Source: Oscillospiraceae bacterium (lineage in GTDB: Bacteria > Bacillota > Clostridia > Oscillospirales > Ruminococcaceae). Taken from it: a stretch of DNA of 64,000 bases. The stretch covers positions 2,064 through 66,063 of the forward strand of contig JAFTQJ010000017.1 in NCBI GenBank assembly GCA_017462785.1. The letters run 5' to 3'. Shown one piece after another: positions 27,526 to 64,000 of this stretch (its first letter is position 1; each line of letters starts with the position of its first letter). Below the pieces are notes generated by a model. The model did no database searches and had not been told where the DNA came from. It saw only the letters and a program-made list of their open reading frames with translations. The translations under genes were made by a program, and so were the position numbers.

Positions 27526-27537
27526 GCAATCACCAGC

Positions 27538-49294: not shown

Positions 49295-50257
49295 TCAAAA
49301 ATTGATCATCATTGCCGCAGCTCCCGTCAATGCTGTGAACCCTGTGAGAACTGCGATCCGCTGCCACGGCTTCATTCCGGCATCCGCCAGATTCTTTTGC
49401 AGTGTGCAGCCATGCTTCCGGAGTGCCGGCAGACGATTGACCGCACAGACCGCTGTGAGAAGCAGCACCGCCATGTGCTGCTGCGTCATCAGACAGACGG
49501 CTGTGATGATGCCGTACATCCAGAAGATGCCGATTTTTCCAAGTCTGCATTTTGCAGGGTGGAGATTCCAGACAAGACAGCCCATGCATGCACCTGCCGC
49601 ACTGAGCGAAAGGAGAGCATACAGATCCTGTGCCTGCTGCATGAACAGCACCGCCGCACAGAGCAGCATCACGCCGCCCACGGAGATCGTGGTGCCGTCC
49701 GGCTCCTCCTCCGGTGCCGCAAGCCAGAGCAGTGCAGTTGCGGCGGCATTCAGCGGAAGATACAGCAGACCTGCATCGTACCGCATAAAGCCAAGCTCCA
49801 GCACGGTGGACTCCATTCCGGCGTACTGCATGAACAGAGCCGTCAGGAGGAACACCGCCAAAAAGTTTGCGATCCGATTGCTGTTTTGCAGCGGTCTTCG
49901 TCGGATCATCCGCCAGTCACAGGCAAAGCCCAGTGCCGCACAGAAGAGTGCAAAGCAGAGAGCCGCACCGATCATCCGCAGCTCCTGCTGTACGGAAACA
50001 GAGGTGCTGTCAAGGATGCGGAAGGTCTGGTAGAGTGTGTAGGTAATTCCTGCACCCGCCAGAGAGCCGAACACCAACAGAAGTCCGCACATCGTCGGAC
50101 GCAGGATGTTTTCGGCGGCTTTCTCTGACTGCTTCGGGGGCGGCTCCGGTTCACAGAATCGCATTTTCTGCAAAAAGGGAACCAACGCTTTCCCGAGTAC
50201 ACCGCTTGCAAGGGCGGCTGTCAATGCCGCTGCAAGCTGGAGCCAGACGGGCATCAT
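49295..50257 (-). CDS. MraY-like polytopic membrane protein with substituted catalytic motifs
   Basis: 320 aa in the canonical mraY slot, with its ATG overlapping the murF stop (ATGA). It shows similarity blocks to MraY (LVPFLQKMRF, RPTMCG, WNLHPAK). The DD, N..N..DG.DG, MGDTGS and HHH blocks read GFACDW, PEEEPDGTTI, RLGKIGI and LRKHGC. Confidence 0.6.
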   Translation of the reverse strand: MMPVWLQLAAALTAALASGVLGKALVPFLQKMRFCEPEPPPKQSEKAAENILRPTMCGLLLVFGSLAGAGITYTLYQTFRILDSTSVSVQQELRMIGAALCFALFCAALGFACDWRMIRRRPLQNSNRIANFLAVFLLTALFMQYAGMESTVLELGFMRYDAGLLYLPLNAAATALLWLAAPEEEPDGTTISVGGVMLLCAAVLFMQQAQDLYALLSLSAAGACMGCLVWNLHPAKCRLGKIGIFWMYGIITAVCLMTQQHMAVLLLTAVCAVNRLPALRKHGCTLQKNLADAGMKPWQRIAVLTGFTALTGAAAMMINF

Positions 50258-51606: not shown

Positions 51607-51616
51607 CCTAATCCTC

Positions 51617-53047
51617 CTATGCCAGCACATTCAGTGCTTCGGCAACAATTTCTCTTTCGTCAAAATGGGTATGACGGTTATTTTCAAAAATCTGGTAGTC
51701 CTCGTGACCCTTGCCGGCAAGTACAATGACATCACCCTTTTCGGCTGTCCGCACCGCATGGAAAATCGCATCACGGCGGTCCGTCACCACATCACGGGGA
51801 ATTGCATTGTCCGCAAGTCCCTCCAGAATGTCGGCAATGATCGCCTCCGGATCTTCATCACGGGGATTGTCGGATGTGATAATGAGCTTATCAGCATACT
51901 TTGCAGCCGCCTGAGCCATCAGCGGACGCTTGGTGCGGTCACGGTTGCCGCCGCATCCGAACAGGCAGATCAGCCTGCCCTCGGTGCAGAGCTTCACATT
52001 CGCCAGAATATTTTCAATGGCATCGGGGGTATGAGCATAGTCGCAGATCACGGAAAAATCACGGTTTGTGGGAATGACCTCGCATCTGCCCTTGACACCG
52101 GTGCAGGTGGAGAGGGATGTGAGGATCTGTTCCGCTGTGAGTCCCATGCTCCGGCATGCGGCATAGGCAGCGGAGGCATTGGCAATATTGAAGCCGCCCG
52201 TCATGTGCATGGAAATGCTCTGCTCGCCGTCGGGAGAACGGAGCACGAACGCTGAACCTGCCGCCTTGATGGACTCTGCGGTGTAGGTGTAGTCCGCATT
52301 CTCGCTGCCGACGCTGTATTTTTCACAGGAGATCTCAGAAAACAGGCGTTTTCCGTAATCGTCCCCGATATTGACAATGGCAGTATCGCAGATGTCAAAC
52401 AGCATCCGCTTGGCATCGTAGTATGCCTCCATGGTCTTGTGGTAGTCAAGGTGATCCTGTGTGAGATTCGTAAACACAGCGGTTCTGAAATGTGTCGGAC
52501 CGATCCGCTTCTGCACCAGACCGAAGGAGGAAACCTCCATCACGACCACATCACAGCCGCTTCTGTACATTCTGTCGTACAGCTGCATCAGCTCAAAGGT
52601 CAGGGGGGTGGTGTTGTTTGTGGGAACAATCTCATCACCGATCTCGTTCTGGATCGTGCCGATCAGACCGACCTTGTGTCCGCAGTCCGTGAGGATGTGC
52701 TTGATGACACTGGTAATGGTGGTCTTGCCGTTCGTGCCGGTCACGCCGATGAACTGCATTTTGCGTTCCGGATGACCGAACCACGCCGCACACAGCTCGC
52801 CATAGCATGCACGGCTGTCTTTCACGAGGATCTGTCTTGCACCCAGTCCCAGATCACGCTCTGCAACAACGGCTGCCGCCCCCTGCTCCAGTGCCTGTGC
52901 AGCAACGGTGTGTCCGTCAAAGCGTTCTCCCTTGACACAGACATAGATGCAGTTTTCAACGATCTTCCGGCTGTCATCGGTGATGGCAGTGATCTCCGCA
53001 TCAGCGATGGCAGGGTCCGTATTCTGAATTAATTCTGCAAGCTTCAT
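51617..53047 (-). CDS. murE: UDP-N-acetylmuramoyl-L-alanyl-D-glutamate--2,6-diaminopimelate ligase
   Basis: It is a Mur ligase with GVTGTNGKTT. The DNPR motif (ITSDNPRDEDP) is the one associated with meso-DAP-adding MurE. I set the start at ATG 53047 (MKLAELIQ) after GGAGG. Confidence 0.9.
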   Translation of the reverse strand: MKLAELIQNTDPAIADAEITAITDDSRKIVENCIYVCVKGERFDGHTVAAQALEQGAAAVVAERDLGLGARQILVKDSRACYGELCAAWFGHPERKMQFIGVTGTNGKTTITSVIKHILTDCGHKVGLIGTIQNEIGDEIVPTNNTTPLTFELMQLYDRMYRSGCDVVVMEVSSFGLVQKRIGPTHFRTAVFTNLTQDHLDYHKTMEAYYDAKRMLFDICDTAIVNIGDDYGKRLFSEISCEKYSVGSENADYTYTAESIKAAGSAFVLRSPDGEQSISMHMTGGFNIANASAAYAACRSMGLTAEQILTSLSTCTGVKGRCEVIPTNRDFSVICDYAHTPDAIENILANVKLCTEGRLICLFGCGGNRDRTKRPLMAQAAAKYADKLIITSDNPRDEDPEAIIADILEGLADNAIPRDVVTDRRDAIFHAVRTAEKGDVIVLAGKGHEDYQIFENNRHTHFDEREIVAEALNVLA

Positions 53048-53092
53048 AGTCAGCCTCCAAATCACAATGTAGATTCCTTTTTGATACCAGCA

Positions 53093-55408
53093 TCAGCCGC
53101 TCTGGTCGTTGACCATGTAGGTCAGCTCAATCACGGTGCCGACCTCGACCTTGTCACCGGGTGCAACGGACTGGCTCTGTACCAGTACATCGCTTCTGTC
53201 AGCGGATGCACCAACGGACACATAGTTCAGTCCCCTGTTGGTCAGTGCGGTGTTCGCATCCCTTGCGGTAAATCTGCGGACATCGGGCACCTCCACATAT
53301 TCCGTGGTATTGTCTGCATCCGTGTACAGGATCACGGTACCGTCCGAAGAAATGGCGGTTCCGGTCAGCGGACACTGCTTAACAATAGTATCCCCATTTC
53401 CCTTGACATCATACTTCAGACCGAGTGCATCAAGCGTGGTGCGTGCTGTGGCAACATCCGTGTCGATCAGCAGCGGCACAACGATGTCAAGCTGTGCATA
53501 TTCCTCCTCCGTGTACTCCGGATAATAACCGAGGTACGGGAGGGCTTCCTCGAGAATGGTTCTCGCATAGGGAGCACATACCACGCTGCCGTAGTAGTTG
53601 ATATTGGTGTTCGGCTCATCCGCCATGATCAGCATGATGATCTCCGGATCGTCAGCCGGTGCAAAGCATGCATAGGATGCAACATACTGCATGTTGTCCT
53701 TGCCGTATTCGTCCAGCTTCTGGGAGGTACCGGACTTGCCGCCGATGGCATAGCCCTTGATATAGGCATTGCTGCCGCCGTTGTTGTCCACGACTGCCTG
53801 TAACAGCTCACGCATGGTCGCAGAGGATTCCTCCGAAATGACCTGACGCTTGACTGTGGTTTCCGTGGTTTCCAGCACGTTGCCGTCACTGGATACGATC
53901 TTGCTGACCACATAGGGTTTGACGAGATAACCGCCGTTGATGGCAGCCGCATAGCCGGTGATCATTTCAATGGGTGTGAGCTTGTTGGACTGACCGAAGG
54001 CACTCGCCGCAAGGTCAACCACGCTCATATTGCTGCCGCTTCTGTAGAAGCTGGTCGCTTCGCCGGGGAGATCGATGCCAGTTTTCTCCGTCAGACCGAA
54101 TGCACGGAAATAGTCGGAGAAACGCTCCACGCCCAGACGCAGACCTGTTTCGATGAAAGCAGGGTTGCAGGAATTGGTCAATGCCTGAGAGAAGGTCTGG
54201 TAGCCGTGTCCTGCAAGCAGATGGCAGTTGATCTTCTCGCCTGCGACCTCCTTGAAACCACTGCAGTTGAAACCGTCCGTTTCCGGATTTACAACACCCT
54301 CTTCCACAGCTGCGGATGCGGTGAATACCTTAAAGACGGAACCCGGAACATACAGCTCCGTGATCGCCTTGTTCTTCCACTGGGTCTCACGGGCTGCGAC
54401 ATATGCATCCCTGTATTCCGACTCCGGCAGCATCAGAAGCTGCTCGGAAACGACGGGGTCATAGATCGTGGAGGGATCATTCAGGTCAAAGCTCGGGTAG
54501 GTTGCCATTGCGTAGATCGCACCGGTCTTGGCGTTCATGATGATGCCGCAGGCACGGTTGCGGACCTCGTAGGTCTGGCACATTTCCTGAAGATTCTTTT
54601 CTAAGTAATATTGCAGTGTGGTATCCAGCGTCAGATACAGGGAGCTGCCATCCTGTGCGGCGTAGGTCGTCGCAAAGCGGTACGGCATGGCGTTGCCCAT
54701 TGCATCGGTTGCAGAGATCACTCTGCCGTCGGTACCGGAGAGGTAGTCATCATAGTAATACTCCAGTCCGTACTGACCCTTGCCGTCACTGTTGGTGAAG
54801 CCGATCACCTGTGCAGCAAGCTCATTCTGCGGATAGTACCGCTTGGTATCCTCCTGTGTGGTGACGGAATTGATGCCGTACTTATCAAAGTACAGTGCCA
54901 GCTCATCCGCAACATTCTTTTCCACCTGTGATTTCAGTACATAGTACTGTGTATCCATTTCCATTGCCTTTGCAATGGTATCCTTGGAGATCTCAAGCTT
55001 CGTGGAAAGCATGGCGATGATCTCCTGCTGGAGTTTTTCGATTGGGATGATCTCCTTACCCTCGGCAAGTGTACCGCCCTCATCAACGATCTTCTGGCGT
55101 TCCTCCATGATCTCAGCGATCGACTCCATCTCCTCACGGTAGAGTGACGGGTCGATGAACACCTTATACACGGTCGCACTCCATGCGAGAGGCGTTCCGT
55201 TTGCGTCATAGATCGTGCCTCTGTTTGCAGAGATGGTGATATTGCTGAAATGCGTACTGTTCGCCATTTCTGCATAATACCGGTGATCCACCACACTCAG
55301 CCAGAACAGACGGACAATGACCATAATCGCTGCAATCATCATTGCAATCAGCACGACCAGATTGGAACGGACTCTCATTTTCTGGGTCGGCTCATGTCTT
55401 ACTGCCAT
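53093..55408 (-). CDS. class B penicillin-binding protein (FtsI/PBP2B/SpoVD type) with two C-terminal PASTA domains
   Basis: It has a transmembrane anchor and the transpeptidase motifs SVFK, SCN and KSGT. Two PASTA-like repeats lie at the C-terminus. I set the start at ATG 55408 (MAVRHEPTQK), 7 nt after GAGGAGG. The track ORF adds 65 implausible codons. Confidence 0.9.
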   Translation of the reverse strand: MAVRHEPTQKMRVRSNLVVLIAMMIAAIMVIVRLFWLSVVDHRYYAEMANSTHFSNITISANRGTIYDANGTPLAWSATVYKVFIDPSLYREEMESIAEIMEERQKIVDEGGTLAEGKEIIPIEKLQQEIIAMLSTKLEISKDTIAKAMEMDTQYYVLKSQVEKNVADELALYFDKYGINSVTTQEDTKRYYPQNELAAQVIGFTNSDGKGQYGLEYYYDDYLSGTDGRVISATDAMGNAMPYRFATTYAAQDGSSLYLTLDTTLQYYLEKNLQEMCQTYEVRNRACGIIMNAKTGAIYAMATYPSFDLNDPSTIYDPVVSEQLLMLPESEYRDAYVAARETQWKNKAITELYVPGSVFKVFTASAAVEEGVVNPETDGFNCSGFKEVAGEKINCHLLAGHGYQTFSQALTNSCNPAFIETGLRLGVERFSDYFRAFGLTEKTGIDLPGEATSFYRSGSNMSVVDLAASAFGQSNKLTPIEMITGYAAAINGGYLVKPYVVSKIVSSDGNVLETTETTVKRQVISEESSATMRELLQAVVDNNGGSNAYIKGYAIGGKSGTSQKLDEYGKDNMQYVASYACFAPADDPEIIMLIMADEPNTNINYYGSVVCAPYARTILEEALPYLGYYPEYTEEEYAQLDIVVPLLIDTDVATARTTLDALGLKYDVKGNGDTIVKQCPLTGTAISSDGTVILYTDADNTTEYVEVPDVRRFTARDANTALTNRGLNYVSVGASADRSDVLVQSQSVAPGDKVEVGTVIELTYMVNDQSG

Positions 55409-55457
55409 ATTCATACCTCCTCGATCCATATTGCCACAGGGCATGCAGAACATGCCC

Positions 55458-55490
55458 AAAATACAAACAGGCAGGTTCATCCCCTGCCTG
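55458..55490 (-). terminator. terminator-like hairpin inside the ftsL-pbp leader (possible attenuator)
   Basis: Minus strand reads CAGGCAGG-ggatgaa-CCTGCCTG followed by TTTGTATTTT. It lies 50-80 nt upstream of the PBP start codon. Confidence 0.4.
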
Positions 55491-55689
55491 TCGTCATTCT
55501 CGTTACTCAAACAGCAAAGTGATCCTATCCTATATCCTGACCGCAGTCCGCCCGGCTTTTCGCCTTTTTTCTGTTTCGGGCGGACAACGGTCAAGCCTTG
55601 CATACACTCGCTGTTATGCCCTTTCCTTCATTGCTGCCGCTGCTGTGCGGAATTACTCAGCAGAGTTCTTTTTTCTAAATCTATGCACC

Positions 55690-56190
55690 CTATCCTCTGA
55701 GATATTCCACTAAATTATTAAACCATGTTTTCATTTTCACAAATACATTCTGCTCCTCATCCGGAATCTCAACAACGTCATTGGTCTGGATCTCGACATA
55801 CTCGATCTGCGAACCGTCAATGGTACGCATACCAAGCACGTTTTCGGCATACTCCTGAATATTTTTGTTGGAGGTCTTGCCGGCAAGTTCGGACTGCATC
55901 CGGACATTTTCGCTCTGGAGGTTCATGTATTCTTGTTTTTTCTCTGTAATCTGATTGCTGATCTGGAGCTGCTGCACGTTGCTGAGTATCACGGCTCCGA
56001 GCAGGGTAAAGCCCAGAAAAACAAGACCGATCACCTTGAAAATGGAAACCTTTTTACCACTGTTGCGTTCCATCTCAAACTGTGCGTTGCCCTTCGGCGG
56101 CTGGGAGATCACGGGCGGTATTTCTGCCGGTGCCGAACTGGAATTGTACTGCACCTGTGTCCTGTTCCCCTGACCATCATAGTACGCCAT
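55690..56190 (-). CDS. ftsL: FtsL-like cell division protein (septum formation initiator type)
   Basis: 166 aa with a single transmembrane helix (IFKVIGLVFLGFTLLGAVIL). A leucine-zipper-like coiled coil follows. Its position between rsmH and the PBP gene supports the call. Confidence 0.6.
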   Translation of the reverse strand: MAYYDGQGNRTQVQYNSSSAPAEIPPVISQPPKGNAQFEMERNSGKKVSIFKVIGLVFLGFTLLGAVILSNVQQLQISNQITEKKQEYMNLQSENVRMQSELAGKTSNKNIQEYAENVLGMRTIDGSQIEYVEIQTNDVVEIPDEEQNVFVKMKTWFNNLVEYLRG

Positions 56191-56196
56191 GACAAC

Positions 56197-57120
56197 TTAG
56201 CTCCTTTCTATCAATCTCAGCTTTGCACTGCGGCTTCTGTGGTTCTGTTCGAGTTCTTCATCGCATGCCGTCACAGGCTTGCGTACCACAAGTGTTCCCT
56301 TTGGCTTTTTACCGCAGACGCACTGCGGAAAATCCGGCGGGCAGGTGCAGCCGCTGCACCACTTTGCAAATTGCTGCTTGACGATGCGATCCTCCAGTGA
56401 ATGGAACGTGATCACCGCAAGCCTTCCGCCCGGTCTGAGGCACTCGAATGCCGCATCCAGACCGTTTCTCAGATGCCCGAACTCGTCATTGACGGCGATT
56501 CTGATCGCCTGAAATGTTTTCTTGCAGGGGTTCTTGTCCCTGCGGAATTTCTGCGGTATGGAGGCTCGGACGATGTCAGCGAGCTGTCCTGTGCGGGTGA
56601 TCGGCTCGGTTTCCCTTGCCTTCACGATATTTGCCGCAATCTTACCGGCGAATTTCTCCTCGCCGTAATCCCGCAGAATCCTTGCCAGCTCCTGTTCGGG
56701 CCAAGTGCCGACAATGTCCTGTGCACTGACTCCCGTCTGGCTCATCCGCATATCCAGCGGTGCATCGGCATGGTACGAAAATCCACGCTCTGCTTCATCG
56801 AGCTGATGGGAAGAAACGCCCAGATCCATCAGGATCCCGTCCACTTCTGCGATCCCCAGCCCATCGAGAGCCTCCCGCATCTGTGAATAATTGCAGTGCA
56901 CCACCGTTGCCGGAAGTCCACGCAGGCGTTCTGTGGCAGCCTGTACCGCATCCGGATCCCTGTCGAGTCCGATGAGTCTGCCGCCCTCTGTCAGTCTTGA
57001 GGCAATTTCATAGGAGTGCCCCGCACCTCCGACCGTACCGTCCACATAAATGCCGTCCGGTCTGATCGCCAGTCCCTCAATGGTTTCCTGCAAAAGTACA
57101 GGAATATGTACAAAATCCAT
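56197..57120 (-). CDS. rsmH: 16S rRNA (cytosine1402-N4)-methyltransferase
   Basis: HIPVLLQETIEGL, YVDGTVGGAGHS and DLGVSSHQLD motifs are present. I set the start at ATG 57120 (MDFVHIPVLL), 6 nt after AAGGAGG. Confidence 0.9.
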   Translation of the reverse strand: MDFVHIPVLLQETIEGLAIRPDGIYVDGTVGGAGHSYEIASRLTEGGRLIGLDRDPDAVQAATERLRGLPATVVHCNYSQMREALDGLGIAEVDGILMDLGVSSHQLDEAERGFSYHADAPLDMRMSQTGVSAQDIVGTWPEQELARILRDYGEEKFAGKIAANIVKARETEPITRTGQLADIVRASIPQKFRRDKNPCKKTFQAIRIAVNDEFGHLRNGLDAAFECLRPGGRLAVITFHSLEDRIVKQQFAKWCSGCTCPPDFPQCVCGKKPKGTLVVRKPVTACDEELEQNHRSRSAKLRLIERS

Positions 57121-57131
57121 AATCTGCCTCC

Positions 57132-57575
57132 TTACAGGCAAAGTGTATCAAGCTGAGGAACCGATTTCGGATCGAATGATTCGTTCACTCTTTCCCATCT
57201 GTCACGTTCCCAGATCTCCGCTTTTCTTCCCGCACCAATGATGACCACATCCTTTTCCAGCGTAGCATAATCACGCAGGGGCTGCGGAATCAGGATTCTT
57301 CCCTGCTTGTCCGCCGTGATCTCAGAAGCTCCTGAAAACAGCCAGCGACGCAGGCTCTCGCCGCTCGGTCCCGGCAGTGCCGCAACCTGAGAGCAGATCT
57401 CCTTCCAGTGATCCGTTGTGTAAACTGACAGATACTTGTCTCCCGTACCCCGTACCACCCAGAAGGTGTCACCGAGTACTTCTCGCAGTTTTGCAGGAAA
57501 ATTCATGCGTCCCTTGCCATCCACATTATGATAGTATGAACCGGTCATGCCGTCGATGTCAATGCACATATCCAT
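57132..57575 (-). CDS. mraZ: transcriptional regulator MraZ
   Basis: It has two SpoVT/AbrB-like halves: NVDGKGRMNFPAKLRE and ADKQGRILIPQPLRD. The start is uncertain among ATG 57575, 57569 (6 nt after AGGAA) and 57548 (MTGSYYHNVD, which aligns best with other MraZ N-termini). Confidence 0.85.
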   Translation of the reverse strand: MDMCIDIDGMTGSYYHNVDGKGRMNFPAKLREVLGDTFWVVRGTGDKYLSVYTTDHWKEICSQVAALPGPSGESLRRWLFSGASEITADKQGRILIPQPLRDYATLEKDVVIIGAGRKAEIWERDRWERVNESFDPKSVPQLDTLCL

Positions 57576-57728
57576 TTCCTGTTCACCGCCCGTCCTTTTG
57601 TTCTTCGTTGTTGTCTTTTGTTCTGTTCTTTTTTCTCTGTGTTTTCTCTTTTTATCTTGCAGCTTACGGGGGGCATGCGGCTGATCCGGTGCATTTTTGC
57701 TTCCGAAAGGGAAGCTCAGGCACTGTGA

Positions 57729-57764
57729 ACCACTTTTACACCGCTTTTAACCACCATTCACCAC
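57729..57764 (-). promoter_or_regulatory. predicted MraZ operator: four GTGGT-type direct repeats at 10-11 bp phasing
   Basis: Minus strand immediately after the -10 reads agaaatGTGGTgaatgGTGGTtaaaagcGGTGTaaaaGTGGTtcac. On the plus strand the boxes are ACCAC at 57729, 57750 and 57760, and ACACC at 57738. Confidence 0.55.
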
Positions 57765-57770
57765 ATTTCT

Positions 57771-57800
57771 ATTATATCACAGGGAACCGCTTCTTTTCAA
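57771..57800 (-). promoter_or_regulatory. sigma-70 promoter of the dcw (mraZ) operon
   Basis: Minus strand reads TTGAAA, an 18-nt spacer ending in TGA, then TATAAT (extended -10). It lies about 200 nt upstream of mraZ. Confidence 0.65.
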
Positions 57801-57915
57801 CCGTCTTTTTGCACAAAGTTTGTGCATATTTTTTGTTTGTTTTTAACAGCAGTGCTGAGAACGGGGGACGGGGGGACATTTTTGGACGGATCCGGAGGAT
57901 TTCCGGCTGTGTGGA

Positions 57916-57944
57916 TTGCAATTTTTTGGGGGATGTGCTATAAT
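57916..57944 (+). promoter_or_regulatory. strong plus-strand sigma-70 promoter, divergent from the mraZ promoter (distal promoter of the glycosyltransferase gene, or of a short RNA)
   Basis: TTGCAA (57916-57921), a 17-nt spacer ending in TGC, then TATAAT (57939-57944). Confidence 0.55.
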
Positions 57945-58101
57945 AGAGGTGTTCTGTAAGATGAGGAGTTATGTGAAAGCTTCTCCCTCCGAGGTTTGTA
58001 ACAGTATAGCACAAATATGTCGATAAGTCAACATTTTTGCTTCATCTTCGGAAAAGAGATGAAGAAAAGCGGCAAAATGGTGAAAAATTCTGTTAAGTGA
58101 A

Positions 58102-58133
58102 CTAGGGAGTGTTGACACTAGGGAGTGTTGACA
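58102..58133 (+). repeat. perfect 16-bp tandem duplication (CTAGGGAGTGTTGACA x2)
   Basis: 58102-58117 and 58118-58133 are identical, followed by a partial third unit (cta). Each unit carries a TTGACA box. Confidence 0.9.
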
Positions 58134-58140
58134 CTAAAAT
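58112..58140 (+). promoter_or_regulatory. proximal sigma-70 promoter for the glycosyltransferase gene
   Basis: TTGACA of the first repeat unit (58112-58117), then a 17-nt spacer, then TAAAAT (58135-58140). The spacer is the second repeat unit. Confidence 0.55.
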
Positions 58141-58300
58141 AATACGCAGATTTTCAAGCAAAAATTTGATGCAGGCAAGGCGAAAAGGTGCAGGCAGGCT
58201 GTCGCCTGTCAAACCTTTTCAACGCAGGATGCGTGAAATTTTGCCGAAAAGATGCGTTGTTAGGCTTAGTGTCAACACGACCTATAAGAAAGGAGCAAAA

Positions 58301-59842
58301 ATGAAACAATCAGACCAAACACAGCCCTTTGCAGAAGCGGTGCGGAGCTTTCCGAAAAGGCATCCGTACCTGTGCACTGCGGTGCTTTGCCTTTCCTGCA
58401 TCCTGCTCTATCCGCAAACGCAGTCGGCTGAACAGCTGCCGTTCCTGCTCCATGCACAGAGCTGGATGCTCGTGATGATCCCCCTGCTCATCGTCCTCGG
58501 CATCTTCCTTTTATATAAAGGTAAGCTCACGGACGGGAGGACAGCACTGCTCCTCATTGCAGCCGGCTTCTGCATGCGGCTTGCCTATGTGATCGCAACG
58601 CCCTACTACATCCGGCAGCACGATGTCGGAAGATTTGACGGCGATGATGGTCACGCCGCCTACATTACCTATTTATATGAGCACATGCATCTGCCGGATT
58701 TTGATGTGCGTGAGGTCTGGCAGTTCTACCACCCTCCCCTGCACCACAGCATTGCCGCCCTCTGGATGCGGCTGCTGACCGGCTGCGGCATCCCTTTCGA
58801 GCATGCCGGAGAAAGTGTTCAGCTCCTGACGCTCTCCTATTCCTGCCTGACACTGGTGCTCTTCTGGCAGATACTGCGGCATTTTCAGCTCAAGGGGCTG
58901 GCGATGGCGGTACCGCTTGCTGTGATGGCATTCCACCCGACCTTCATCATCCTCGCCGGAAGTGTGAACAATGACATGCTCTGCATCACCCTGATGCTTG
59001 CCTCCGTCCTGCTCACGCTCCGCTGGTTCAGGGAGCCGAAGCTTTCCACGATCCTGAAGCTCGCACTGACCATCGGACTCGGCATGATGGCGAAGCTCTC
59101 CGCATGGATGACCGCACCTGCGGCTGCGGCGGCGTTCCTTGTGATTCTGTACCGGAACCGAAAGGCTCCCCTCCCCTATCTGAAGCAGTTTGTACTGTTC
59201 GGTATCGTCTGTGTGCCGCTTGGACTCTGGTGGGGCATCCGCAATCTGCTGCGGTGGGGAGTTCCCATTGCCTATGTGCCGATGCTCTCCGACAACAGCT
59301 CGCAGTTTGTGGGGAACATCCCGTTCTGGCGGCGGCTGTTTGATTTCTCCGCACAGCAATGGACGTATGTCTATGACTGCTTTAAAATGTATGGGCAGAG
59401 CTATGATGAATTCAACCCCCTCATGGGTCTGCTGAAAACGGCGATGTTTGACGAGCTGATCAATCCGGAATATTATCCGGCAATTGCAGGCTTCGGGGAG
59501 CTGCTGTTTTTCAGTCAGGTGCTGCTCTGTCTGCTGGCGGCGGCGGCAATGACCGCAGTATGCCGGAAACACACGGAGCTGATTGGCGGCATGGAGAAGG
59601 TACAGCTCTGCATGACCTTCGGCATCACGCTCATCAGCTATTACAGCTTCTGCCTTGCCTTTGCACATGTCTGCACACAGAACATCCGCTATGCAACGCC
59701 CCTCATCTTCATCAGCTGTCTGTTCCTCGGACTGTGGATGCAGCAGCTGCCGGAAAAATCCCCTCTGCGGAAAGTGATCTGCGGTGCGGCGGTGCTGTTT
59801 GCGGCGGCAAGCTATATTGTTTATGATGTGGTTTGCGGATAA
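58301..59842 (+). CDS. polytopic GT-C fold glycosyltransferase (GT39 / PMT_2 / ArnT-like)
   Basis: I set the start at ATG 58301 (MKQSDQTQPF) after AAAGGAG. It has roughly 12 predicted transmembrane helices by eye. The first extracytoplasmic loop reads YYIRQHDVGRFDGDDGHAAYITYLYEH...FYHPPLHH, which resembles phospholipid-carrier-dependent glycosyltransferases. The family call is tentative. Confidence 0.5.
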   Translation: MKQSDQTQPFAEAVRSFPKRHPYLCTAVLCLSCILLYPQTQSAEQLPFLLHAQSWMLVMIPLLIVLGIFLLYKGKLTDGRTALLLIAAGFCMRLAYVIATPYYIRQHDVGRFDGDDGHAAYITYLYEHMHLPDFDVREVWQFYHPPLHHSIAALWMRLLTGCGIPFEHAGESVQLLTLSYSCLTLVLFWQILRHFQLKGLAMAVPLAVMAFHPTFIILAGSVNNDMLCITLMLASVLLTLRWFREPKLSTILKLALTIGLGMMAKLSAWMTAPAAAAAFLVILYRNRKAPLPYLKQFVLFGIVCVPLGLWWGIRNLLRWGVPIAYVPMLSDNSSQFVGNIPFWRRLFDFSAQQWTYVYDCFKMYGQSYDEFNPLMGLLKTAMFDELINPEYYPAIAGFGELLFFSQVLLCLLAAAAMTAVCRKHTELIGGMEKVQLCMTFGITLISYYSFCLAFAHVCTQNIRYATPLIFISCLFLGLWMQQLPEKSPLRKVICGAAVLFAAASYIVYDVVCG

Positions 59843-59855
59843 TATCAGGCTTTTT

Positions 59856-59886
59856 CCCTCTGCTTTCGGGCGGAGGGGAATTTTTT
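59856..59886 (+). terminator. intrinsic terminator after the glycosyltransferase gene
   Basis: CCCTCTGC-tttcgg-GCGGAGGG (8 bp with one G-U pair) followed by GAATTTTTT. Confidence 0.7.
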
Positions 59887-59907
59887 AGATAAATTTGTTG
59901 TTTTTTA

Positions 59908-59936
59908 TTGACAGACCCGTCTGTAAAAAGTATAAT
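59908..59936 (+). promoter_or_regulatory. perfect consensus sigma-70 promoter for the tandem-HEPN gene
   Basis: TTGACA (59908-59913), a 17-nt spacer, then TATAAT (59931-59936). Confidence 0.7.
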
Positions 59937-59969
59937 ATATATAGTATTTCATTTTTGGAGGACAATAAT

Positions 59970-61316
59970 ATGGAGCTTTGCACAGAATTCTTAATTCATA
60001 TTGACAAGCGTGGTGGAATCGCAACTACGGATGATTCATTCAAAAATCTTCTTATGTCAAACAGTGATATAAAAATCATAAACAAACACATTGACTATCA
60101 AGGCAAGAAATACAGCTTCGCCATGCAATCTGGTGATATCCAAGACATGGAAGTAAGATTTTATCACATTTTCATTAAACTTGAATTAAAGATCGAAGAA
60201 GAACAGAATTGTTTTGAAGATGAAAAATTCAAATCGTACCAAAAGCTTTTGACAGCAGTCAAACAAATTTTCTATGGCAAAGGAACAAGAGATGATGGAC
60301 GCATGTTGCTGGAGAATAACGCAGTCAGCTTTGAAATACTTTGGGATGATGTTAGTCTACTTTGTTCGCAAAAAGCTTATCCTTTGATTTACAAAATTGA
60401 GAATCTCATGCGAAAGCTTATCACAAAATTCATGCTGGTAAATATCGGAACAGAGTGGGAAACCCGTAATATTCCGGATGCAATGAAAAATGGCAAAATC
60501 AAGATGAAAACAAATGCAAGGGAAACCGGATATTTATACCAGCGAGATTTTATCGAACTTTCTGATTATCTATTTAAAGCGTATCCTATGAAGCGTTGCA
60601 GCATCAATGATTTAATGGAAACCAAAGACGCACCTGAATCTATTCCTTATGAAAAATTGAAAGACTATTTTCTTATTTCCAATTGGGATAGATATTTCAA
60701 ATCTATTCTTGACGTAGATAGTGAAAAACTTAAAAAACAATGGAAAGAATTATATGATTTACGATGTGATATTGCACATAACAATCTATTTTCACTTTCA
60801 AATTACAATCAAGTTGTAAAACTTACGGACGAACTGACACCTAAAATTCAGGCTGCAATCGAAAAACTGGATGAAATTCAAATTGACTCTGAAGATCGTG
60901 AACGAGTGTTTGAAGCAAATGCATCACCAGAGGAATTAGTTGGTATTTTCCTTAGAATGTACAATAATCTATTCAACATTCTACTTGATTTAGCAGCTGG
61001 CTACTCATTTCTCGTATCAATTCCACGGATAGGACGATTTCACAGCATACTTCACATACTCGAAATTTTACGAGCAAATGGATATGAAACGTCAGATGAA
61101 GCATTCAAAGAATTAAAAGGAGTTACTTATCTACGCAATAAGCTTACACATTCTTCCCAATATTGGGATTATAACCCTTCTTTCATATCAGGTCATATAT
61201 ATATAATAAAAAAGTGGATTGATTTTTTCGAATCTGAGGCAAGAAAATATCATGAATTATGTATATTAAACGAAACCGATTATTCAAATACAGATGATGC
61301 CATACCCCAAGATTAA
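59970..61316 (+). CDS. hypothetical protein with two HEPN-type Rx4H motifs (Swt1-like HEPN plus a second HEPN-like domain)
   Basis: I set the start at ATG 59970 (MELCTEFLIH), 8 nt after GGAGG, giving 448 aa. R265-x4-H270 (LYDLRCDIAHNNLFS; nt 60762-60779) is preceded by YKIENLMRKLITKFMLVNIGTEW. R389-x4-H394 lies in GVTYLRNKLTHSS (nt 61134-61151). The whole gene is strongly AT-rich relative to its flanks. Confidence 0.6.
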   Translation: MELCTEFLIHIDKRGGIATTDDSFKNLLMSNSDIKIINKHIDYQGKKYSFAMQSGDIQDMEVRFYHIFIKLELKIEEEQNCFEDEKFKSYQKLLTAVKQIFYGKGTRDDGRMLLENNAVSFEILWDDVSLLCSQKAYPLIYKIENLMRKLITKFMLVNIGTEWETRNIPDAMKNGKIKMKTNARETGYLYQRDFIELSDYLFKAYPMKRCSINDLMETKDAPESIPYEKLKDYFLISNWDRYFKSILDVDSEKLKKQWKELYDLRCDIAHNNLFSLSNYNQVVKLTDELTPKIQAAIEKLDEIQIDSEDRERVFEANASPEELVGIFLRMYNNLFNILLDLAAGYSFLVSIPRIGRFHSILHILEILRANGYETSDEAFKELKGVTYLRNKLTHSSQYWDYNPSFISGHIYIIKKWIDFFESEARKYHELCILNETDYSNTDDAIPQD

Positions 61317-61356
61317 ATCCGTCATATTAAACAGGTATACGAGTCTATTCAACAGC

Positions 61357-61397
61357 AAAAACGGCAAACCTCACAAATTGTTTGCCGTTTTCATTTT
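61357..61397 (+). terminator. intrinsic terminator after the tandem-HEPN gene
   Basis: AAAACGGCAAAC-ctcacaaatt-GTTTGCCGTTTT followed by CATTTT. Confidence 0.85.
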
Positions 61398-61402
61398 ACC
61401 CC

Positions 61403-61431
61403 TTGACAAAGTAGCAAAAGTATACTATAAT
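61403..61431 (+). promoter_or_regulatory. perfect consensus sigma-70 promoter (distal pduL promoter)
   Basis: TTGACA (61403-61408), a 17-nt spacer, then TATAAT (61426-61431). Confidence 0.65.
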
Positions 61432-61439
61432 AGAATCAT

Positions 61440-61464
61440 TGTTAGTATCAATTAGATACTAACA
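61440..61464 (+). promoter_or_regulatory. perfect 10-bp inverted repeat at the predicted transcription start (candidate operator)
   Basis: TGTTAGTATC-aatta-GATACTAACA begins 9 nt after the -10 of the 61403 promoter. Confidence 0.45.
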
Positions 61465-61515
61465 GTACAGACAATTTCCAAGGATGAACATTTCCGACAA
61501 AATTCTCCAAACCCC

Positions 61516-61544
61516 TTGACGATTCCCCAAAAAAGTAGTACAAT
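61516..61544 (+). promoter_or_regulatory. proximal sigma-70 promoter for pduL
   Basis: TTGACG (61516-61521), a 17-nt spacer, then TACAAT (61539-61544). It shares the ACCCCTTGAC...AAAAGTA context with the distal promoter. Confidence 0.55.
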
Positions 61545-61622
61545 GAAAATAATACAGTGCATCCGCACTGCAAATATGTACTGCTTTCCATAAAAGGAGA
61601 GCTGGATTTTGGAGGAAATAGC

Positions 61623-62201
61623 ATGTCTAAGAAGTTCATCATTGAAACATCCGCACGTCACCTGCATGTAACTCAGGAGGATCTGGAGATCCTGTTCGGC
61701 AAGGGTGCAACACTGACACACAAGAAGGATCTGTCCCAGCCGGGTCAGTTCGCTTGCGAAGAGCGTGTCACTGTTGTAGGCCCCAAGAAGGAGCTGGCTG
61801 GCGTTTCCATTCTCGGTCCGGTACGTCCGGAAACACAGGTTGAGCTGTCCGCTACGGATGCACGTTCCATCGGTATCGCTGCTCCCATCCGTGAGTCCGG
61901 CGATGTGGCTGGTTCCGGTGCCTGTAAGCTGGTTGGTCCCTGCGGTGAGGTAGAGCTGAAGCAGGGCGTGATCGTGGCAAAGCGTCACATCCATCTGACC
62001 CCTGAGGATGCTGAAGAGCTGGGTGTTGTGGATAAGGAAGTTGTCTGGGTCAAGTGTGACACAGACGGCAGAAAGGCAATTCTGGGCGATGTAGTGTGCC
62101 GTGTATCCAAGAACTACGCAAGAGCAATGCACATCGACACAGACGAATCCAACGCAATCGGTGCAGGCCGTGAGCTGGAGGGCGAGATCATCAAGCTGTA
62201 A
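61623..62201 (+). CDS. pduL: phosphate propanoyltransferase / phosphate acyltransferase PduL
   Basis: I set the start at ATG 61623 (MSKKFIIETSARHLHVTQEDL) after GGAGG. It has the duplicated PduL repeats SARH.H and AKRHIHL, plus HIDTDESNA. Confidence 0.85.
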   Translation: MSKKFIIETSARHLHVTQEDLEILFGKGATLTHKKDLSQPGQFACEERVTVVGPKKELAGVSILGPVRPETQVELSATDARSIGIAAPIRESGDVAGSGACKLVGPCGEVELKQGVIVAKRHIHLTPEDAEELGVVDKEVVWVKCDTDGRKAILGDVVCRVSKNYARAMHIDTDESNAIGAGRELEGEIIKL

Positions 62202-62226
62202 GATCTCATTGTTGATACATGCAGTT

Positions 62227-62258
62227 TTCGGGCAGTCACACGATTGCCCGAATTTTGT
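62227..62258 (+). terminator. intrinsic terminator after pduL
   Basis: TTCGGGCA-gtcacacgat-TGCCCGAA followed by TTTTGT. Confidence 0.75.
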
Positions 62259-62326
62259 ATCATGGATATGCCAATACTATCACTGCCGTTTGTCCGACAA
62301 CCCGAATCTTTTCGAGAGGTGATCGT

Positions 62327-62971
62327 ATGAATCAAGCATTGAACAACTGGAAGAATACATTGGAAGCACTCCCCTCCCTGCCCGTTTCCGTACTCAGGGA
62401 CGGTAAGACCGCACTTGTGATCGTGGATATGATCAACGGCTTTCTGACGGAGGGACCGTTTGCAAGCCCCCGTTCCGCATCCGTTCTGCCCGCAGTGGAA
62501 AAGCTGCTGTGCTTTGCCAAGGAAAACGCCATTCCGGCGGCGGCATTCGCAGACTGTCACAAGCCGGATTCCATTGAATTTCAGGCGTTTCCGCCGCACT
62601 GCCTTGCAGGTACGAGTGAATCTGAAATTGCTCCCTCCCTCTGTGAGATCGGCGGTTTCACACGCATTGAAAAGAATTCTACCAATGGTTTTCTGACCGA
62701 GGGCTTTCAGGAATTCCTCGCAGCAAATCCGGATTGTGAGCGTTTTGTCGTATGCGGTGTATGCACGGACATCTGTGTGATGCAGTTTGCACTCGCCCTC
62801 AAATGCTACGCCAACCAGCAGAACCGTCCGCTGGAGGTCATCGTTCCGGTGAATGCTGTGGAAACCTACGATGCACCGGCTCACAATGCCGACCTGATGC
62901 AGACGATGGCATTGCAGATGCTTGCCAATGCCGGCATCACACTTGTAAGGGAGGCGGAATATGATGACTGA
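62327..62971 (+). CDS. pncA: isochorismatase-family cysteine hydrolase, probable nicotinamidase
   Basis: I set the start at ATG 62327 (MNQALNNWKN) after GAGAGG. It has VIVDMINGF (Asp), a conserved Lys region, and VCGVCTDICV (nucleophile Cys). Its stop overlaps the pncB start, which supports a role in NAD salvage. Confidence 0.7.
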   Translation: MNQALNNWKNTLEALPSLPVSVLRDGKTALVIVDMINGFLTEGPFASPRSASVLPAVEKLLCFAKENAIPAAAFADCHKPDSIEFQAFPPHCLAGTSESEIAPSLCEIGGFTRIEKNSTNGFLTEGFQEFLAANPDCERFVVCGVCTDICVMQFALALKCYANQQNRPLEVIVPVNAVETYDAPAHNADLMQTMALQMLANAGITLVREAEYDD

Positions 62972-64000
62972 ACGTAATCTGACCATGCTCGTGGATTTCT
63001 ATGAGCTGACCATGGGTAACGGTTTTCTGGAAAACGGCAGAGGTGAGGAAATCGCCTACTTTGACATGTTCTACCGCAAAGCTCCGGACAATGCGGCGTA
63101 TGCGATCGCCGCAGGACTCCAGCAGGTCATTGACTATATCAAGGCTCTGCACTTCACGGAGGAGGACATCACCTACCTGAGAAGCAGAAATCTGTTCAGT
63201 GAAAAATTCCTGAGCTATCTGCGAAATTTCAGATTCACCTGTGATGTATGGGCGGTGCCGGAGGGAACGCCGGTATTCCCCCACGAGCCTCTGCTGACGG
63301 TGCGTGGCCCTGCAATTCAGGCACAGCTCATTGAAACTATGGTGCTCCTGAGCATCAATCACCAGAGCCTGATCGCAACCAAGGCAAACCGCATTGTGAC
63401 TGCGGCACAGGGCAGACCGGTCATGGAATTCGGCTCTCGCCGTGCACAGGGCTATGACGGTGCGGTCTACGGTGCAAGAGCCGCCTACATCGGCGGATGT
63501 GCGGGCACGGCATGTGCGATTGCGGATACGGCATTTTCCATTCCGGCACTCGGCACGATGGCTCACAGCTGGGTGCAGCTCTATGACACGGAGCTGGAGG
63601 CTTTCGAGGCATATGCAAGGGTGTATCCGGACGACTGCACACTCCTCGTGGATACCTACAATGTCCTGAAATCCGGCATTCCGAATGCGATCAAGGTGTT
63701 CAAGAAGCTGGAGGAGCAGGGACACAGGGGCAGGGGTGTCCGCATTGACAGCGGCGACATTGCATATCTCTCCAAGCGTGCGAGGGAAATGTTCGACGCA
63801 GCAGGACTGCCCTATATTCAGATCGTGGCTTCCAATTCTCTGGATGAGTACATCATCCGTGAGCTGATCGCACAGGATGCGAAAATCGACAGCTTCGGTG
63901 TGGGCGAGCGTCTGGTGACATCCCGTTCTGAGCCGGTATTCGGCGGTGTCTACAAGCTGGCGGCGGTCGAAGAGAACGGCGAGATCATCCCGAAGATCAA
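62961..64000 (+). CDS. pncB: nicotinate phosphoribosyltransferase (partial; 3' end beyond the window)
   Basis: My translation from ATG 62961 (after GGAGG) gives MMTERNLTMLVDFYELTMGNGFLENG...MEFGSRRAQGYDGAVYGARAAYIGG...GTMAHSWVQ...RIDSGD. This is typical NAPRTase. The ORF is still open at the window end, so it is absent from the track. Confidence 0.85.
   Translation, partial: MMTERNLTMLVDFYELTMGNGFLENGRGEEIAYFDMFYRKAPDNAAYAIAAGLQQVIDYIKALHFTEEDITYLRSRNLFSEKFLSYLRNFRFTCDVWAVPEGTPVFPHEPLLTVRGPAIQAQLIETMVLLSINHQSLIATKANRIVTAAQGRPVMEFGSRRAQGYDGAVYGARAAYIGGCAGTACAIADTAFSIPALGTMAHSWVQLYDTELEAFEAYARVYPDDCTLLVDTYNVLKSGIPNAIKVFKKLEEQGHRGRGVRIDSGDIAYLSKRAREMFDAAGLPYIQIVASNSLDEYIIRELIAQDAKIDSFGVGERLVTSRSEPVFGGVYKLAAVEENGEIIPKI

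What the first reader, a model, noticed from the sequence alone, without database searches (positions are those of the whole stretch)
59856..61560. AT-rich single-gene island encoding a tandem Rx4H (double-HEPN) protein: candidate stand-alone defence RNase
Seen in sequence:
- About 1.6 kb of visibly AT-rich DNA (roughly one-third GC by eye, against mid-50s % in the flanks) lies between the terminator of a GT-C glycosyltransferase gene and pduL.
- It contains exactly one gene (59970..61316, 448 aa). That gene has a perfect TTGACA-17-TATAAT promoter, a GGAGG ribosome-binding site and its own strong terminator.
- The protein has two Rx4H motifs about 125 residues apart. The first is R265-CDIA-H270 in WKELYDLRCDIAHNNLFS. 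The second is R389-NKLT-H394 in GVTYLRNKLTHSS.

Established knowledge:
- Rx4-6H is the catalytic signature of HEPN RNases.
- The first motif follows a helix reading YKIENLMRKLITKFMLVNIGTEW. That combination resembles what I remember of Swt1-like HEPN domains.
- Two HEPN domains in one polypeptide is the Cas13 and some-Abi architecture.

Inference:
- The gene looks horizontally acquired.
- There is no MNT antitoxin, Cas gene, ATPase or other partner nearby.
- The N-terminal ~120 aa match nothing I recognise and could be a sensor domain.
- This would be an unclassified one-gene abortive-infection or defence module.
Basis: partly seen in the sequence, partly recalled or inferred. Interest (0 to 1): 0.8.

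Follow-up and report, generated by a model that had tools for sequence, protein, structure and literature searches.

The report
Stand-alone double-HEPN RNase defence-gene island
A 1.5-kb AT-rich insert between two housekeeping genes of a gut/rumen Oscillospiraceae bacterium carries one self-sufficient gene for a three-domain predicted RNase, from a widespread but unstudied family that keeps turning up in prophages and defence islands, so it is a credible but untested new single-gene anti-phage candidate.

Summary
Window 59898-61397 is a 1.5-kb insert at 31-37% GC (flanks 52-59%). It carries one 448-aa gene with a perfect sigma-70 promoter, a GGAGG site and its own terminator.

Five related Oscillospiraceae genomes join the GT-C gene directly to pduL. 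A sixth carries a 46%-identical allele at the same spot.

The protein has three parts:
- a confidently modelled beta-rich N-terminal domain (aa 1-126);
- a Swt1-like HEPN domain (R265x4H270);
- a HepT/DUF86-like HEPN domain (R389x4H394).

It belongs to a family of about 500 clusters (50% identity) in Firmicutes, cyanobacteria, Proteobacteria and others. In 225 members motif 1 is invariant. Motif 2 is kept in only 74% and is lost in the same-site allele.

The N-terminal domain was seen only in this architecture. Relatives sit between the CI repressor and integrase of prophages, beside integrative elements, or next to known defence genes.

No validated defence model, solved structure or paper matches it. 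Structure searches were inconclusive.

Best reading: a stand-alone abortive-infection-type RNase with HEPN1 as catalytic core. A Cas13-like composite site is possible but unproven.

The parts
59898..61397 (+). Inserted island (promoter + one gene + terminator), about 1.5 kb and about 33% GC
   Evidence: Empty-site relative L007 matches window 59843-59897 and 61398-61617 with only about 5 nt between them. GC profile.
59908..59936 (+). Own promoter, TTGACA-17-TATAAT (12/12 consensus)
   Evidence: It is 84% conserved in the sister allele L040.
59957..59961 (+). GGAGG ribosome-binding site, 8 nt before the ATG
59970..61316 (+). CDS, 448 aa: NTD - Swt1-like HEPN - HepT-like HEPN
   Evidence: An identical protein is found on 6 metagenome/MAG contigs in the same context.
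59970..60347 (+). N-terminal beta-rich domain (aa 1-126), ending in the conserved WDD. It is family-specific and a candidate sensor or oligomerisation module.
   Evidence: In the AF2 model pLDDT is mostly >90, except about aa 101-120 (62-68); the strand/helix order is given. Only weak ferredoxin/ACT-like Foldseek hits. The NTD profile finds 515 representatives, always N-terminal. 132 of 142 listed carry the HEPN region and the other 10 are short fragments.
60348..60884 (+). HEPN1 (aa 127-305), Swt1-like. It has a long first helix (YPLIYKIENLMRKLITKFM), a variable insert, then the motif helix and a last helix.
   Evidence: Pfam HEPN_Swt1 matches 45/48 relatives, best E 3.5e-7. The window protein itself scores 19.2 bits against a cut-off of 27.5. 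PADLOC PDC-M34B matches the first helix.
60762..60779 (+). Rx4H motif 1 (R265 CDIA H270)
   Evidence: R and H are invariant in 225/225 non-redundant family members.
60921..61289 (+). HEPN2 (aa 318-440), HepT/DUF86-like
   Evidence: Pfam HepT-like matches 28/48 relatives, best E 1.8e-9. The family profile aligns to HepT 5yep_B through the RNxxVH motif, E 0.15. Foldseek finds HepT 6m6u_H with TM 0.52 by target length but E 5.1. hhalign puts it in register with HEPN1, P 5.6e-4.
61134..61151 (+). Rx4H motif 2 (R389 NKLT H394)
   Evidence: Kept in 167/225 members (74%). Lost in the same-locus allele P0004/L040 and in prophage copies.
61358..61397 (+). Own intrinsic terminator (12-bp stem, 10-nt loop, T-rich tail)
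   Evidence: I8. 85% conserved in L040.

Best explanation
The island is a horizontally acquired, self-contained, single-gene abortive-infection-type defence module.

Proposed mechanism:
- The gene is transcribed from its own consensus promoter. This is inferred from the signals.
- The product is a latent, metal-independent HEPN endoribonuclease.
- The invariant Swt1-like HEPN1 motif (R265/H270) is the catalytic core. HEPN sites normally need two R/H pairs, so the site is most likely completed by pairing of two HEPN1 domains in a homo-oligomer.
- The HepT-like HEPN2 is an auxiliary domain. It may provide a second site, RNA binding or regulation. It is still catalytically equipped in this protein.
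- The family-specific N-terminal beta-rich domain senses a phage-derived cue, or controls assembly, and thereby releases the RNase.
- RNA cleavage (by analogy tRNA anticodon loops or mRNA) then stops translation and phage growth.

Shown here: the insert, the expression signals, the three-domain architecture, motif conservation, and the mobile, prophage and defence context of relatives.

Inferred: RNase activity, latency, the trigger, the target and the oligomeric state.
For: - Insert and signals.
- HEPN assignments at family level.
- Motif 1 is 225/225 and motif 2 is 167/225.
- The NTD is confined to this architecture.
- Sporadic spread across phyla and plasmids.
- 12 IMG/VR loci have a phage CI repressor just upstream. 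In 9 loci a clustered integrase ORF lies next to the gene, downstream on the same strand in 7. This is a lysogeny-operon cargo slot.
- The closest homologue lies beside an integrase/MobC/TnpV element.
- A Clostridium sporogenes copy lies next to HEPN_LA2681 and PIN_12 genes.
- Among 133 nearest-neighbour ORFs of 35 loci there are hits to AbiLi, AriA, PtuA, mad3, RexA, DolB, PD-T7-4, NsnA/B, and type I and type II R-M proteins.
- The same-site allele has diverged to 46% aa identity, while the flanks stay at 77-98%. This fits arms-race evolution.
- Working precedents for stand-alone, latent HEPN Abi RNases: HepS (PMC13043305) and DARNA/PD-T7-3 (10.64898/2026.02.22.705581).
Against: - No experiment exists for any family member.
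- No validated PADLOC or PHROG model matches. There is only a 60-residue match to the candidate PDC-M34B.
- The window protein alone is below Pfam's cut-off.
- Foldseek found no significant HEPN structure.
- The neighbour survey has no matched control, so enrichment of defence genes is not quantified.
- The oligomeric state and the geometry of the two motifs were not testable.
- The closest clade has a small Zn-ribbon partner gene that this locus lacks. Stand-alone function may therefore not be the ancestral state.
Confidence: 0.6

Rival explanations
1. Cas13-like intramolecular nuclease. In one polypeptide the two unlike HEPN domains pack against each other. R265/H270 and R389/H394 then form a single composite active site, gated by the N-terminal domain. 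No oligomerisation is needed.
For: - Both motifs are intact in this protein and in 74% of the family.
- They sit at equivalent positions, at the end of a helix before a long last helix, and align in register.
- Full-length pTM (0.64) is higher than for the HEPN part alone (0.49).
- Weak PADLOC hits to CARF_HEPN, Csx1 and Cas13a models occur in a few relatives.
Against: - 26% of members lack motif 2 while all keep motif 1. These include the allele at the very same locus, B. thuringiensis copies and prophage copies. A two-motif intramolecular site therefore cannot be the family's general mechanism.
- No model coordinates or PAE were available to measure distances between the motifs.
- No significant structural match to Cas13 or any tandem HEPN protein.
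Confidence: 0.2
2. Orphan toxin or selfish addiction gene. A HepT-like/Swt1-like RNase toxin has lost, or never needed, its antitoxin. It persists as a mobile passenger, or stabilises mobile elements, with no role in phage defence.
For: - HEPN2 is of the HepT/DUF86 type, typical of type VII toxin-antitoxin systems.
- Relatives ride on prophages, an integrative element and plasmids.
- The closest clade has a tightly coupled small Zn-ribbon gene that could be an antitoxin.
Against: - No MNT/MntA or other recurrent partner was seen in 121 loci, apart from clade-specific neighbours.
- Here the gene sits alone in the chromosome between housekeeping genes, behind a consensus promoter, and is identical in 6 assemblies. 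An unrestrained toxin would not be tolerated.
- There is no room for an RNA antitoxin and there are no repeats.
Confidence: 0.1
3. Non-defence or decaying gene: a cellular RNA-processing or regulatory protein, or an inactive passenger on its way to loss.
For: - The gene is absent from most related genomes without obvious consequence.
- The sister allele has already lost motif 2.
Against: - The reading frame is intact, all invariant residues are kept, and there are strong expression signals.
- Motif 1 is invariant over 225 diverse members, which indicates selection for catalysis.
- Foreign composition and sporadic phyletic spread argue against a housekeeping role.
Confidence: 0.07

Closest known systems
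HepS (Gifsy-1 prophage 'HEPN solo' abortive-infection protein; PMC13043305)
   Same: A single gene with no partner or antitoxin, often prophage-borne, constitutively made and latent. It is a HEPN Rx4-6H RNase activated by a phage protein, and it cleaves tRNA anticodon loops. This is the best functional analogy.
   Different: HepS is under 250 aa with one HEPN domain and works as a tetramer. It has no beta-rich N-terminal domain and no second HEPN domain. No sequence or Foldseek match was found here.
ApeA and DARNA/PD-T7-3 (single-protein HEPN defence systems; 10.64898/2026.02.22.705581, and ApeA preprints listed)
   Same: One polypeptide combines a HEPN RNase with a non-catalytic sensor domain. 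They act by abortive infection through tRNA cleavage. ApeA, like this family, has a beta-rich N-terminal domain ahead of the HEPN domain (PMC3710099).
   Different: No PADLOC ApeA or PD-T7-3 model was among the hits. DARNA has its HEPN domain at the N-terminus and a large helical ssDNA-binding C-terminal domain. The ApeA N-terminal domain is about 300 aa. Neither has a second HEPN domain.
HepT-MntA (type VII toxin-antitoxin; PDB 5yep, 6m6u)
   Same: HEPN2 is of the HepT/DUF86 type, and its RNxxxH motif aligns with the HepT catalytic motif.
   Different: There is no MntA nucleotidyltransferase next to the gene here, and none recurs in relatives. Here the HepT-like domain is the C-terminal third of a three-domain protein, and its motif is dispensable in a quarter of members.
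Cas13 (type VI CRISPR effectors)
   Same: Two unlike HEPN domains in one polypeptide.
   Different: This protein is 448 aa against about 800-1200 aa. It has no crRNA-binding lobes. There is no CRISPR array or cas gene in the island or the surrounding 16 kb. There is no significant sequence or structure match.
Bacterial Swt1-like/Abi2 HEPN clade of Anantharaman et al. 2013 (PMC3710099), Pfam PF18731, and PADLOC candidate PDC-M34B
   Same: HEPN1 matches this clade's profiles. Catalytically active bacterial Swt1-family HEPN domains were already predicted to be defence RNases.
   Different: The architectures listed there are fusions to AAA+, TM helices, helicase/REase and others. They do not include this NTD-HEPN-HEPN arrangement. 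The match to PDC-M34B covers only about 60 residues of the first helix.

Membership tests
HEPN superfamily | Rx4-6H motif | tested here: met
   Two motifs, R265x4H270 and R389x4H394. Motif 1 is invariant in 225/225 relatives and motif 2 is kept in 167/225.
HEPN superfamily | Significant match to a HEPN-clan profile | tested here: inconclusive
   The window protein alone matches HEPN_Swt1 at E 1.6e-3 and 19.2 bits, below the 27.5 cut-off. At family level HEPN_Swt1 matches 45/48 (best 3.5e-7) and HepT-like matches 28/48 (best 1.8e-9). Membership therefore rests on homologues.
HEPN superfamily | All-alpha up-down helical bundle carrying the motif | tested here: inconclusive
   AF2 models are all-helical from aa 127. 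Each motif lies at the C-terminal end of a helix before a long last helix. Foldseek found no significant HEPN structure; the best was HepT 6m6u_H at E 5.1, TM 0.52 by target length.
HepT-MntA type VII toxin-antitoxin | Adjacent MntA (minimal nucleotidyltransferase) antitoxin gene | tested here: not met
   The neighbours are PMT_2 and PduL. No recurrent MNT-like neighbour cluster appeared in 121 loci.
Cas13 / type VI CRISPR-Cas | CRISPR array and a crRNA-guided effector of about 800-1200 aa | tested here: not met
   The protein is 448 aa. No direct-repeat array lies in 48000-64000, and there is no CRISPR repeat family in the window.
Cas13 / type VI CRISPR-Cas | Two HEPN domains forming one composite site | not testable with these tools
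   Two HEPN domains are present. Model coordinates and PAE are not exposed, so the distance between the motifs is unknown.
ApeA, AbiD/F (Abi_2), PD-T7-3/DARNA and other validated single-gene HEPN systems | Match to the system's profile | tested here: not met
   PADLOC-DB 2.0.0 reported only PDC-M34B (partial) and weak CARF_HEPN or DzbB-type hits. No ApeA, Abi_2 or PD-T7-3 model was listed. Pfam gave no Abi_2 or Apea hit.
PADLOC candidate system PDC-M34 | Full-length match to PDC-M34B plus a PDC-M34A partner | tested here: not met
   The match covers aa 134-193 only, E 2.5e-6. There is no second gene in the island.
Genomic island / defence hotspot cargo | Presence/absence polymorphism at a conserved junction, with foreign composition | tested here: met
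   Five related genomes have the empty GT-C/pduL junction and one has a divergent allele. GC is 0.33 against 0.54.

The most novel reading that the evidence does not exclude
A CRISPR-independent, compact (448 aa) RNase in which two unlike HEPN domains (Swt1-type and HepT-type) form one intramolecular composite site. A dedicated ferredoxin-like N-terminal sensor gates it. This would be a free-standing counterpart of the Cas13 nuclease lobe and a plausible example of the kind of Abi/TA-derived protein from which type VI effectors arose. The gene would reside in a chromosomal hotspot where its body is swapped or diversified between conserved promoter/5'-end and terminator 'handles'.
Probability: 0.15. 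Interest if true: 0.7.

Novelty: new variant of a known kind. Interest (0 to 1): 0.45.

Why it matters
Stand-alone HEPN RNases (HepS, ApeA, DARNA) have recently been shown to be complete sense-and-kill immune proteins. Each new family has revealed a different trigger.

This family has about 500 clusters at 50% identity. It is present in gut and rumen Firmicutes, Bacillus, cyanobacteria and proteobacterial prophages. It matched no model of PADLOC-DB 2.0.0 (2023) beyond a partial hit to the candidate PDC-M34B, and it has no literature.

Three features make it useful to test:
- It combines two different HEPN types, which bears on how composite HEPN sites and Cas13-like architectures evolve.
- A natural experiment already exists, because motif 2 is lost in a quarter of members.
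- It offers a clean minimal 1.5-kb cassette with native signals for direct testing.

If it fails those tests, it is simply one more annotated 'HEPN domain-containing protein'.

Tried and rejected
- Single-sequence searches gave nothing usable: NCBIfam none, PDB sequences none, PHROGs only noise.
- Foldseek of the full model was dominated by weak ferredoxin/ACT-like hits to the N-terminal domain, E >= 0.03.
- I therefore modelled aa 124-448 alone. Its PDB search also gave nothing significant, and neither did BFVD. The fold test is inconclusive rather than negative.
- tblastn against cultured phages, with the window protein and with a prophage homologue, found nothing. blastn against E. coli genomes also found nothing. 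Plasmids gave two distant hits only.
- An RNA element explaining the unusually conserved first 63 nt of the CDS was not supported (fold z = 0.33). Rfam found nothing meaningful in the island.
- The 53-aa ORF called downstream is probably spurious.
- Target-site duplications or terminal repeats of the island: none convincing.
- A CRISPR array or cas partner: none.
- Literature searches for the family, PF18731, PDC-M34 and tandem/double HEPN defence proteins returned nothing specific.
- The MAE_18760-NTD1 domain of Anantharaman 2013 (about 121 aa, beta-rich) looked like a lead for the N-terminal domain. No MAE-type HEPN profile matched, so it remains unverified.
Full report
**1. Observation**

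- The AT-rich stretch is real. GC is 0.30-0.37 across 59850-61649, against 0.52-0.59 in both flanks. The 60001-61000 block is the lowest of the whole window.
- One ORF fills it: 59970-61316, 448 aa.
- Expression signals are as described:
  - a 12/12 TTGACA-17-TATAAT promoter at 59908-59936;
  - GGAGG at 59957-59961, 8 nt before the ATG;
  - a perfect 12-bp hairpin at 61358-61391 with a T-rich tail.
- The two motifs are R265CDIAH270 and R389NKLTH394.
- The flanking genes are a PMT_2 (GT-C) glycosyltransferase and PduL/PTAC. The dcw cluster (mraZ, rsmH, PBP, Mur ligases) lies upstream. pncA- and pncB-like genes lie downstream.
- An identical protein is annotated in an Oscillospiraceae MAG. It occurs on six metagenome contigs in the same context.

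**2. It is an insertion, and the site is polymorphic**

A scan of one genome per species with the GT-C protein returned 34 loci.

- Five related genomes (L005, L006, L007, L008, L038) have GT-C at 66-79% identity and PduL at 97-98%. In these, GT-C is followed directly by pduL, with 289-657 nt between and no HEPN gene. The window has 1784 nt at 33.8% GC.
- L007 matches window 59843-59897 and 61398-61617 with about 5 nt between them. This sets the insert at about 59898-61397.
- The AT-rich 61398-61620 is therefore the native pduL leader, not part of the island.
- No integrase, terminal repeats or clear target duplication accompany the insert.
- A sixth genome (L040, GCA_045578565.1) has a homologue at exactly this junction.
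- Nucleotide identity between the two alleles is uneven:

| Segment | nt identity |
|---|---|
| promoter + 5' UTR | 84% |
| first 21 codons | 92% (20 of the first 21 residues identical) |
| gene body | 38-67% |
| terminator | 85% |

- At the protein level the two alleles are 46% identical overall. The NTD is 51%, HEPN1 36-57% and HEPN2 25-29%. The flanking genes are 77-98%.
- The two alleles are each other's nearest relatives, but only marginally (46% against 45% and 42% to P0002).
- I read this as one ancestral insertion followed by very fast divergence, or by exchange of the gene body. It was either lost in, or never spread to, equally distant sister species.
- The nucleotide-level conservation of the first 63 nt is unexplained. 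No RNA structure accounts for it.

**3. The protein**

- The search found 260 homologues. Apart from the identical copy, the best is 44% identical.
- Typical members are about 400-490 aa. They come from Clostridium, Bacillus, Planococcus, cyanobacteria, Sulfurimonas, Janthinobacterium, Acidobacteria and many metagenomes. Two plasmids (Nostoc, Persicobacter) also carry one.
- Sources call them hypothetical, 'HEPN domain-containing' or 'Apea-like HEPN' proteins.
- AF2 with 48 homologues gave pLDDT 83.5 and pTM 0.64. The model shows:
  - a strand-rich domain at aa 1-126, with pLDDT mostly above 90 (dipping to 62-68 at about aa 101-120);
  - an all-helical region at 127-302;
  - a second helical region at 320-439.
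- Alone, the window protein matches HEPN_Swt1 only below threshold (19.2 against 27.5 bits).
- Across 48 relatives, HEPN_Swt1 matches 45 (best 3.5e-7) and HepT-like/DUF86 matches 28 (best 1.8e-9).
- The family profile aligns its RNxxVH onto the catalytic RNxxVH of HepT toxin 5yep at E 0.15.
- hhalign places HEPN1 and HEPN2 in register at their motifs (P 5.6e-4).
- Foldseek gave no significant hit, either for the full model or for a HEPN-only model. The best HEPN-type matches were HepT 6m6u_H (TM 0.52 by target length, E 5.1) and Csm6 6tug.
- The HEPN assignment therefore rests on family-level profiles and motifs. Structural confirmation is inconclusive.

**4. Which motif matters**

- In 225 non-redundant members aligned to the family HMM, R265 and H270 are present in all 225. 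So are E144, R148, N238, W258 and Y262.
- R389 and H394 are both present in only 167 (74%).
- Motif 2 is missing in the same-locus allele (aligned 'IYKFCDNPS'), in a Bacillus thuringiensis group and in the prophage copies.
- Canonical HEPN sites use two R/H pairs. Invariance of motif 1 with a dispensable motif 2 therefore favours a HEPN1-HEPN1 site in an oligomer as the general solution.
- HEPN2 would then be auxiliary. In the window protein both motifs are intact, so an intramolecular Cas13-like site is not excluded for it.

**5. The N-terminal domain**

- A profile of the NTD was searched against 1.84 billion representatives. It found 515 proteins at E <= 1e-3 and 316 at E <= 1e-10. The match was always at the N-terminus.
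- Of the 142 newly listed proteins, 132 also carry the HEPN region. The other ten are fragments of 154 aa or less.
- Unlike the AbiJ-type N-terminal domains described by Anantharaman et al. (PMC3710099), this domain is not shared with other effectors. It is a dedicated part of this family.
- Its fold resembles ferredoxin/ACT/PII-like alpha-beta sandwiches only weakly.
- A sensor or assembly role is inference.

**6. Context of relatives**

I collected 36 IMG/VR loci and 80 metagenome loci.

- Most have no conserved adjacent gene.
- Three recurrent neighbour sets are clade-specific:
  - In 12 viral loci a phage CI repressor (Phage_CI_repr + Phage_CI_C) lies 2-60 nt upstream on the same strand. 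An integrase (Int_N + Phage_integrase) cluster has 9 members, downstream on the same strand in 7. By my recollection this matches the cI-int lysogeny operon of 186/P2-like prophages, a slot expressed in lysogens.
  - In 5 loci of the gut clade closest to the window protein, a 92-105-aa Zn-ribbon ORF overlaps the stop codon. The window and L040 lack it.
  - In 3 loci an HNH_2 protein follows.
- The closest homologue lies next to an integrase/MobC/NikA/TnpV element.
- Another homologue lies next to a Schlafen-AlbA_2 ATPase gene.
- A C. sporogenes copy lies next to HEPN_LA2681 and PIN_12 proteins.
- Scanning the two nearest ORFs on each side in 35 loci (133 ORFs) gave PADLOC hits to mad3 (4), AbiLi (3), AriA (3), PtuA (2), RexA, DolB, PD-T7-4, NsnA/B, PDC-S14 and R-M components. 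Pfam hits included S24 repressors, integrases and phage structural genes.
- There is no matched control, so this is supportive but not quantitative.

**7. Comparison with what is known**

- No validated PADLOC model matches. There is only a 60-residue hit to the first helix of the candidate PDC-M34B, plus weak CARF_HEPN and DzbB hits.
- No paper in the library deals with the family.
- The best working analogies are HepS and DARNA/PD-T7-3. Both are single, latent HEPN proteins activated by a phage cue, a tail-tip protein and SSB-bound ssDNA respectively. Both cleave tRNA anticodon loops. ApeA is a further analogy.
- The present family is a member of none of these.
- It also fails the defining features of HepT-MntA (no MntA gene) and of Cas13 (no array, wrong size).

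**8. Verdict**

- It is not unique. It represents a sizeable, unstudied family.
- Its defence role is inferred from context.
- The Cas13-like composite site is unproven and cannot be the family-wide rule.
- I rate it a new variant of a known kind (stand-alone HEPN abortive-infection RNases), of moderate interest.

Noticed in passing
window 59898-60032 vs L040:6560-6694: The island's promoter, 5' UTR and first 21 codons are 84-92% identical in nucleotides between the two same-site alleles. The rest of the gene is 38-67% identical. This 5' end is better conserved than the 3' end of the flanking GT-C gene (73%). No stable RNA structure explains it (z = 0.33). It may be a recombination handle or a regulatory element.
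   Followed up: partly
L039:8224-8517, L041:8238-8516; also L079, L081, L082: In the gut clade closest to the window protein, a conserved 92-105-aa Zn-ribbon ORF (CxxC...CPNC, weak DUF1272 match) overlaps the stop codon of the HEPN gene. It is a candidate partner or antitoxin. It is absent from the window and from L040. Some other members carry Cys-rich C-terminal tails instead.
   Followed up: partly
L048, L051, L052, L055-L061, L063, L065 (IMG/VR loci): Twelve loci have a CI repressor just upstream of the family gene. Seven of them also have an integrase downstream on the same strand (a lysogeny-operon cargo slot). The copies listed in the motif census lack the second Rx4H motif.
   Followed up: partly
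window 61398-61622: The pduL leader carries two consensus-like promoters (61403-61431, a perfect match, and 61516-61544). It is 76-94% conserved across species (76-77% in the two most distant, L008 and L038). There is only a far sub-threshold Rfam match (Clostridiales-3, 14.5 bits against a cut-off of 103).
   Followed up: no
L005:7540-7760, L006:7520-7790 and 7850-8000: The 'empty' GT-C/pduL junctions of related genomes carry their own short GC-rich palindromic insertions. This intergenic site is therefore a general indel hotspot.
   Followed up: no
L042:5793-6881, 8581-10086, 10413-11939: In Clostridium sporogenes the family gene is flanked by three other candidate RNase genes. These are a 362-aa ORF with a weak HEPN_Swt1 match, a 501-aa HEPN_LA2681 protein and a 508-aa PIN_12 protein. 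Together they form a cluster of RNase-type candidate defence genes.
   Followed up: no
P0017, P0023, P0033, P0036, P0061 and similar (~480-490 aa members): A subfamily carries a conserved ~80-aa C-terminal extension (…SWKDEI…GGEASL.EIYDYIE…SSDT..YK…GRWGLR). It looks like a winged helix (weak Forkhead hits).
   Followed up: no
window 7587-7673 and 7701-7786 (- strand): Two tRNA genes. They are the only Rfam families above threshold in the 64-kb window.
   Followed up: no
window 2001-3000, 27001-28000, 43001-45000: Milder low-GC blocks (0.445-0.47, against about 0.53 on average) that were not examined.
   Followed up: no
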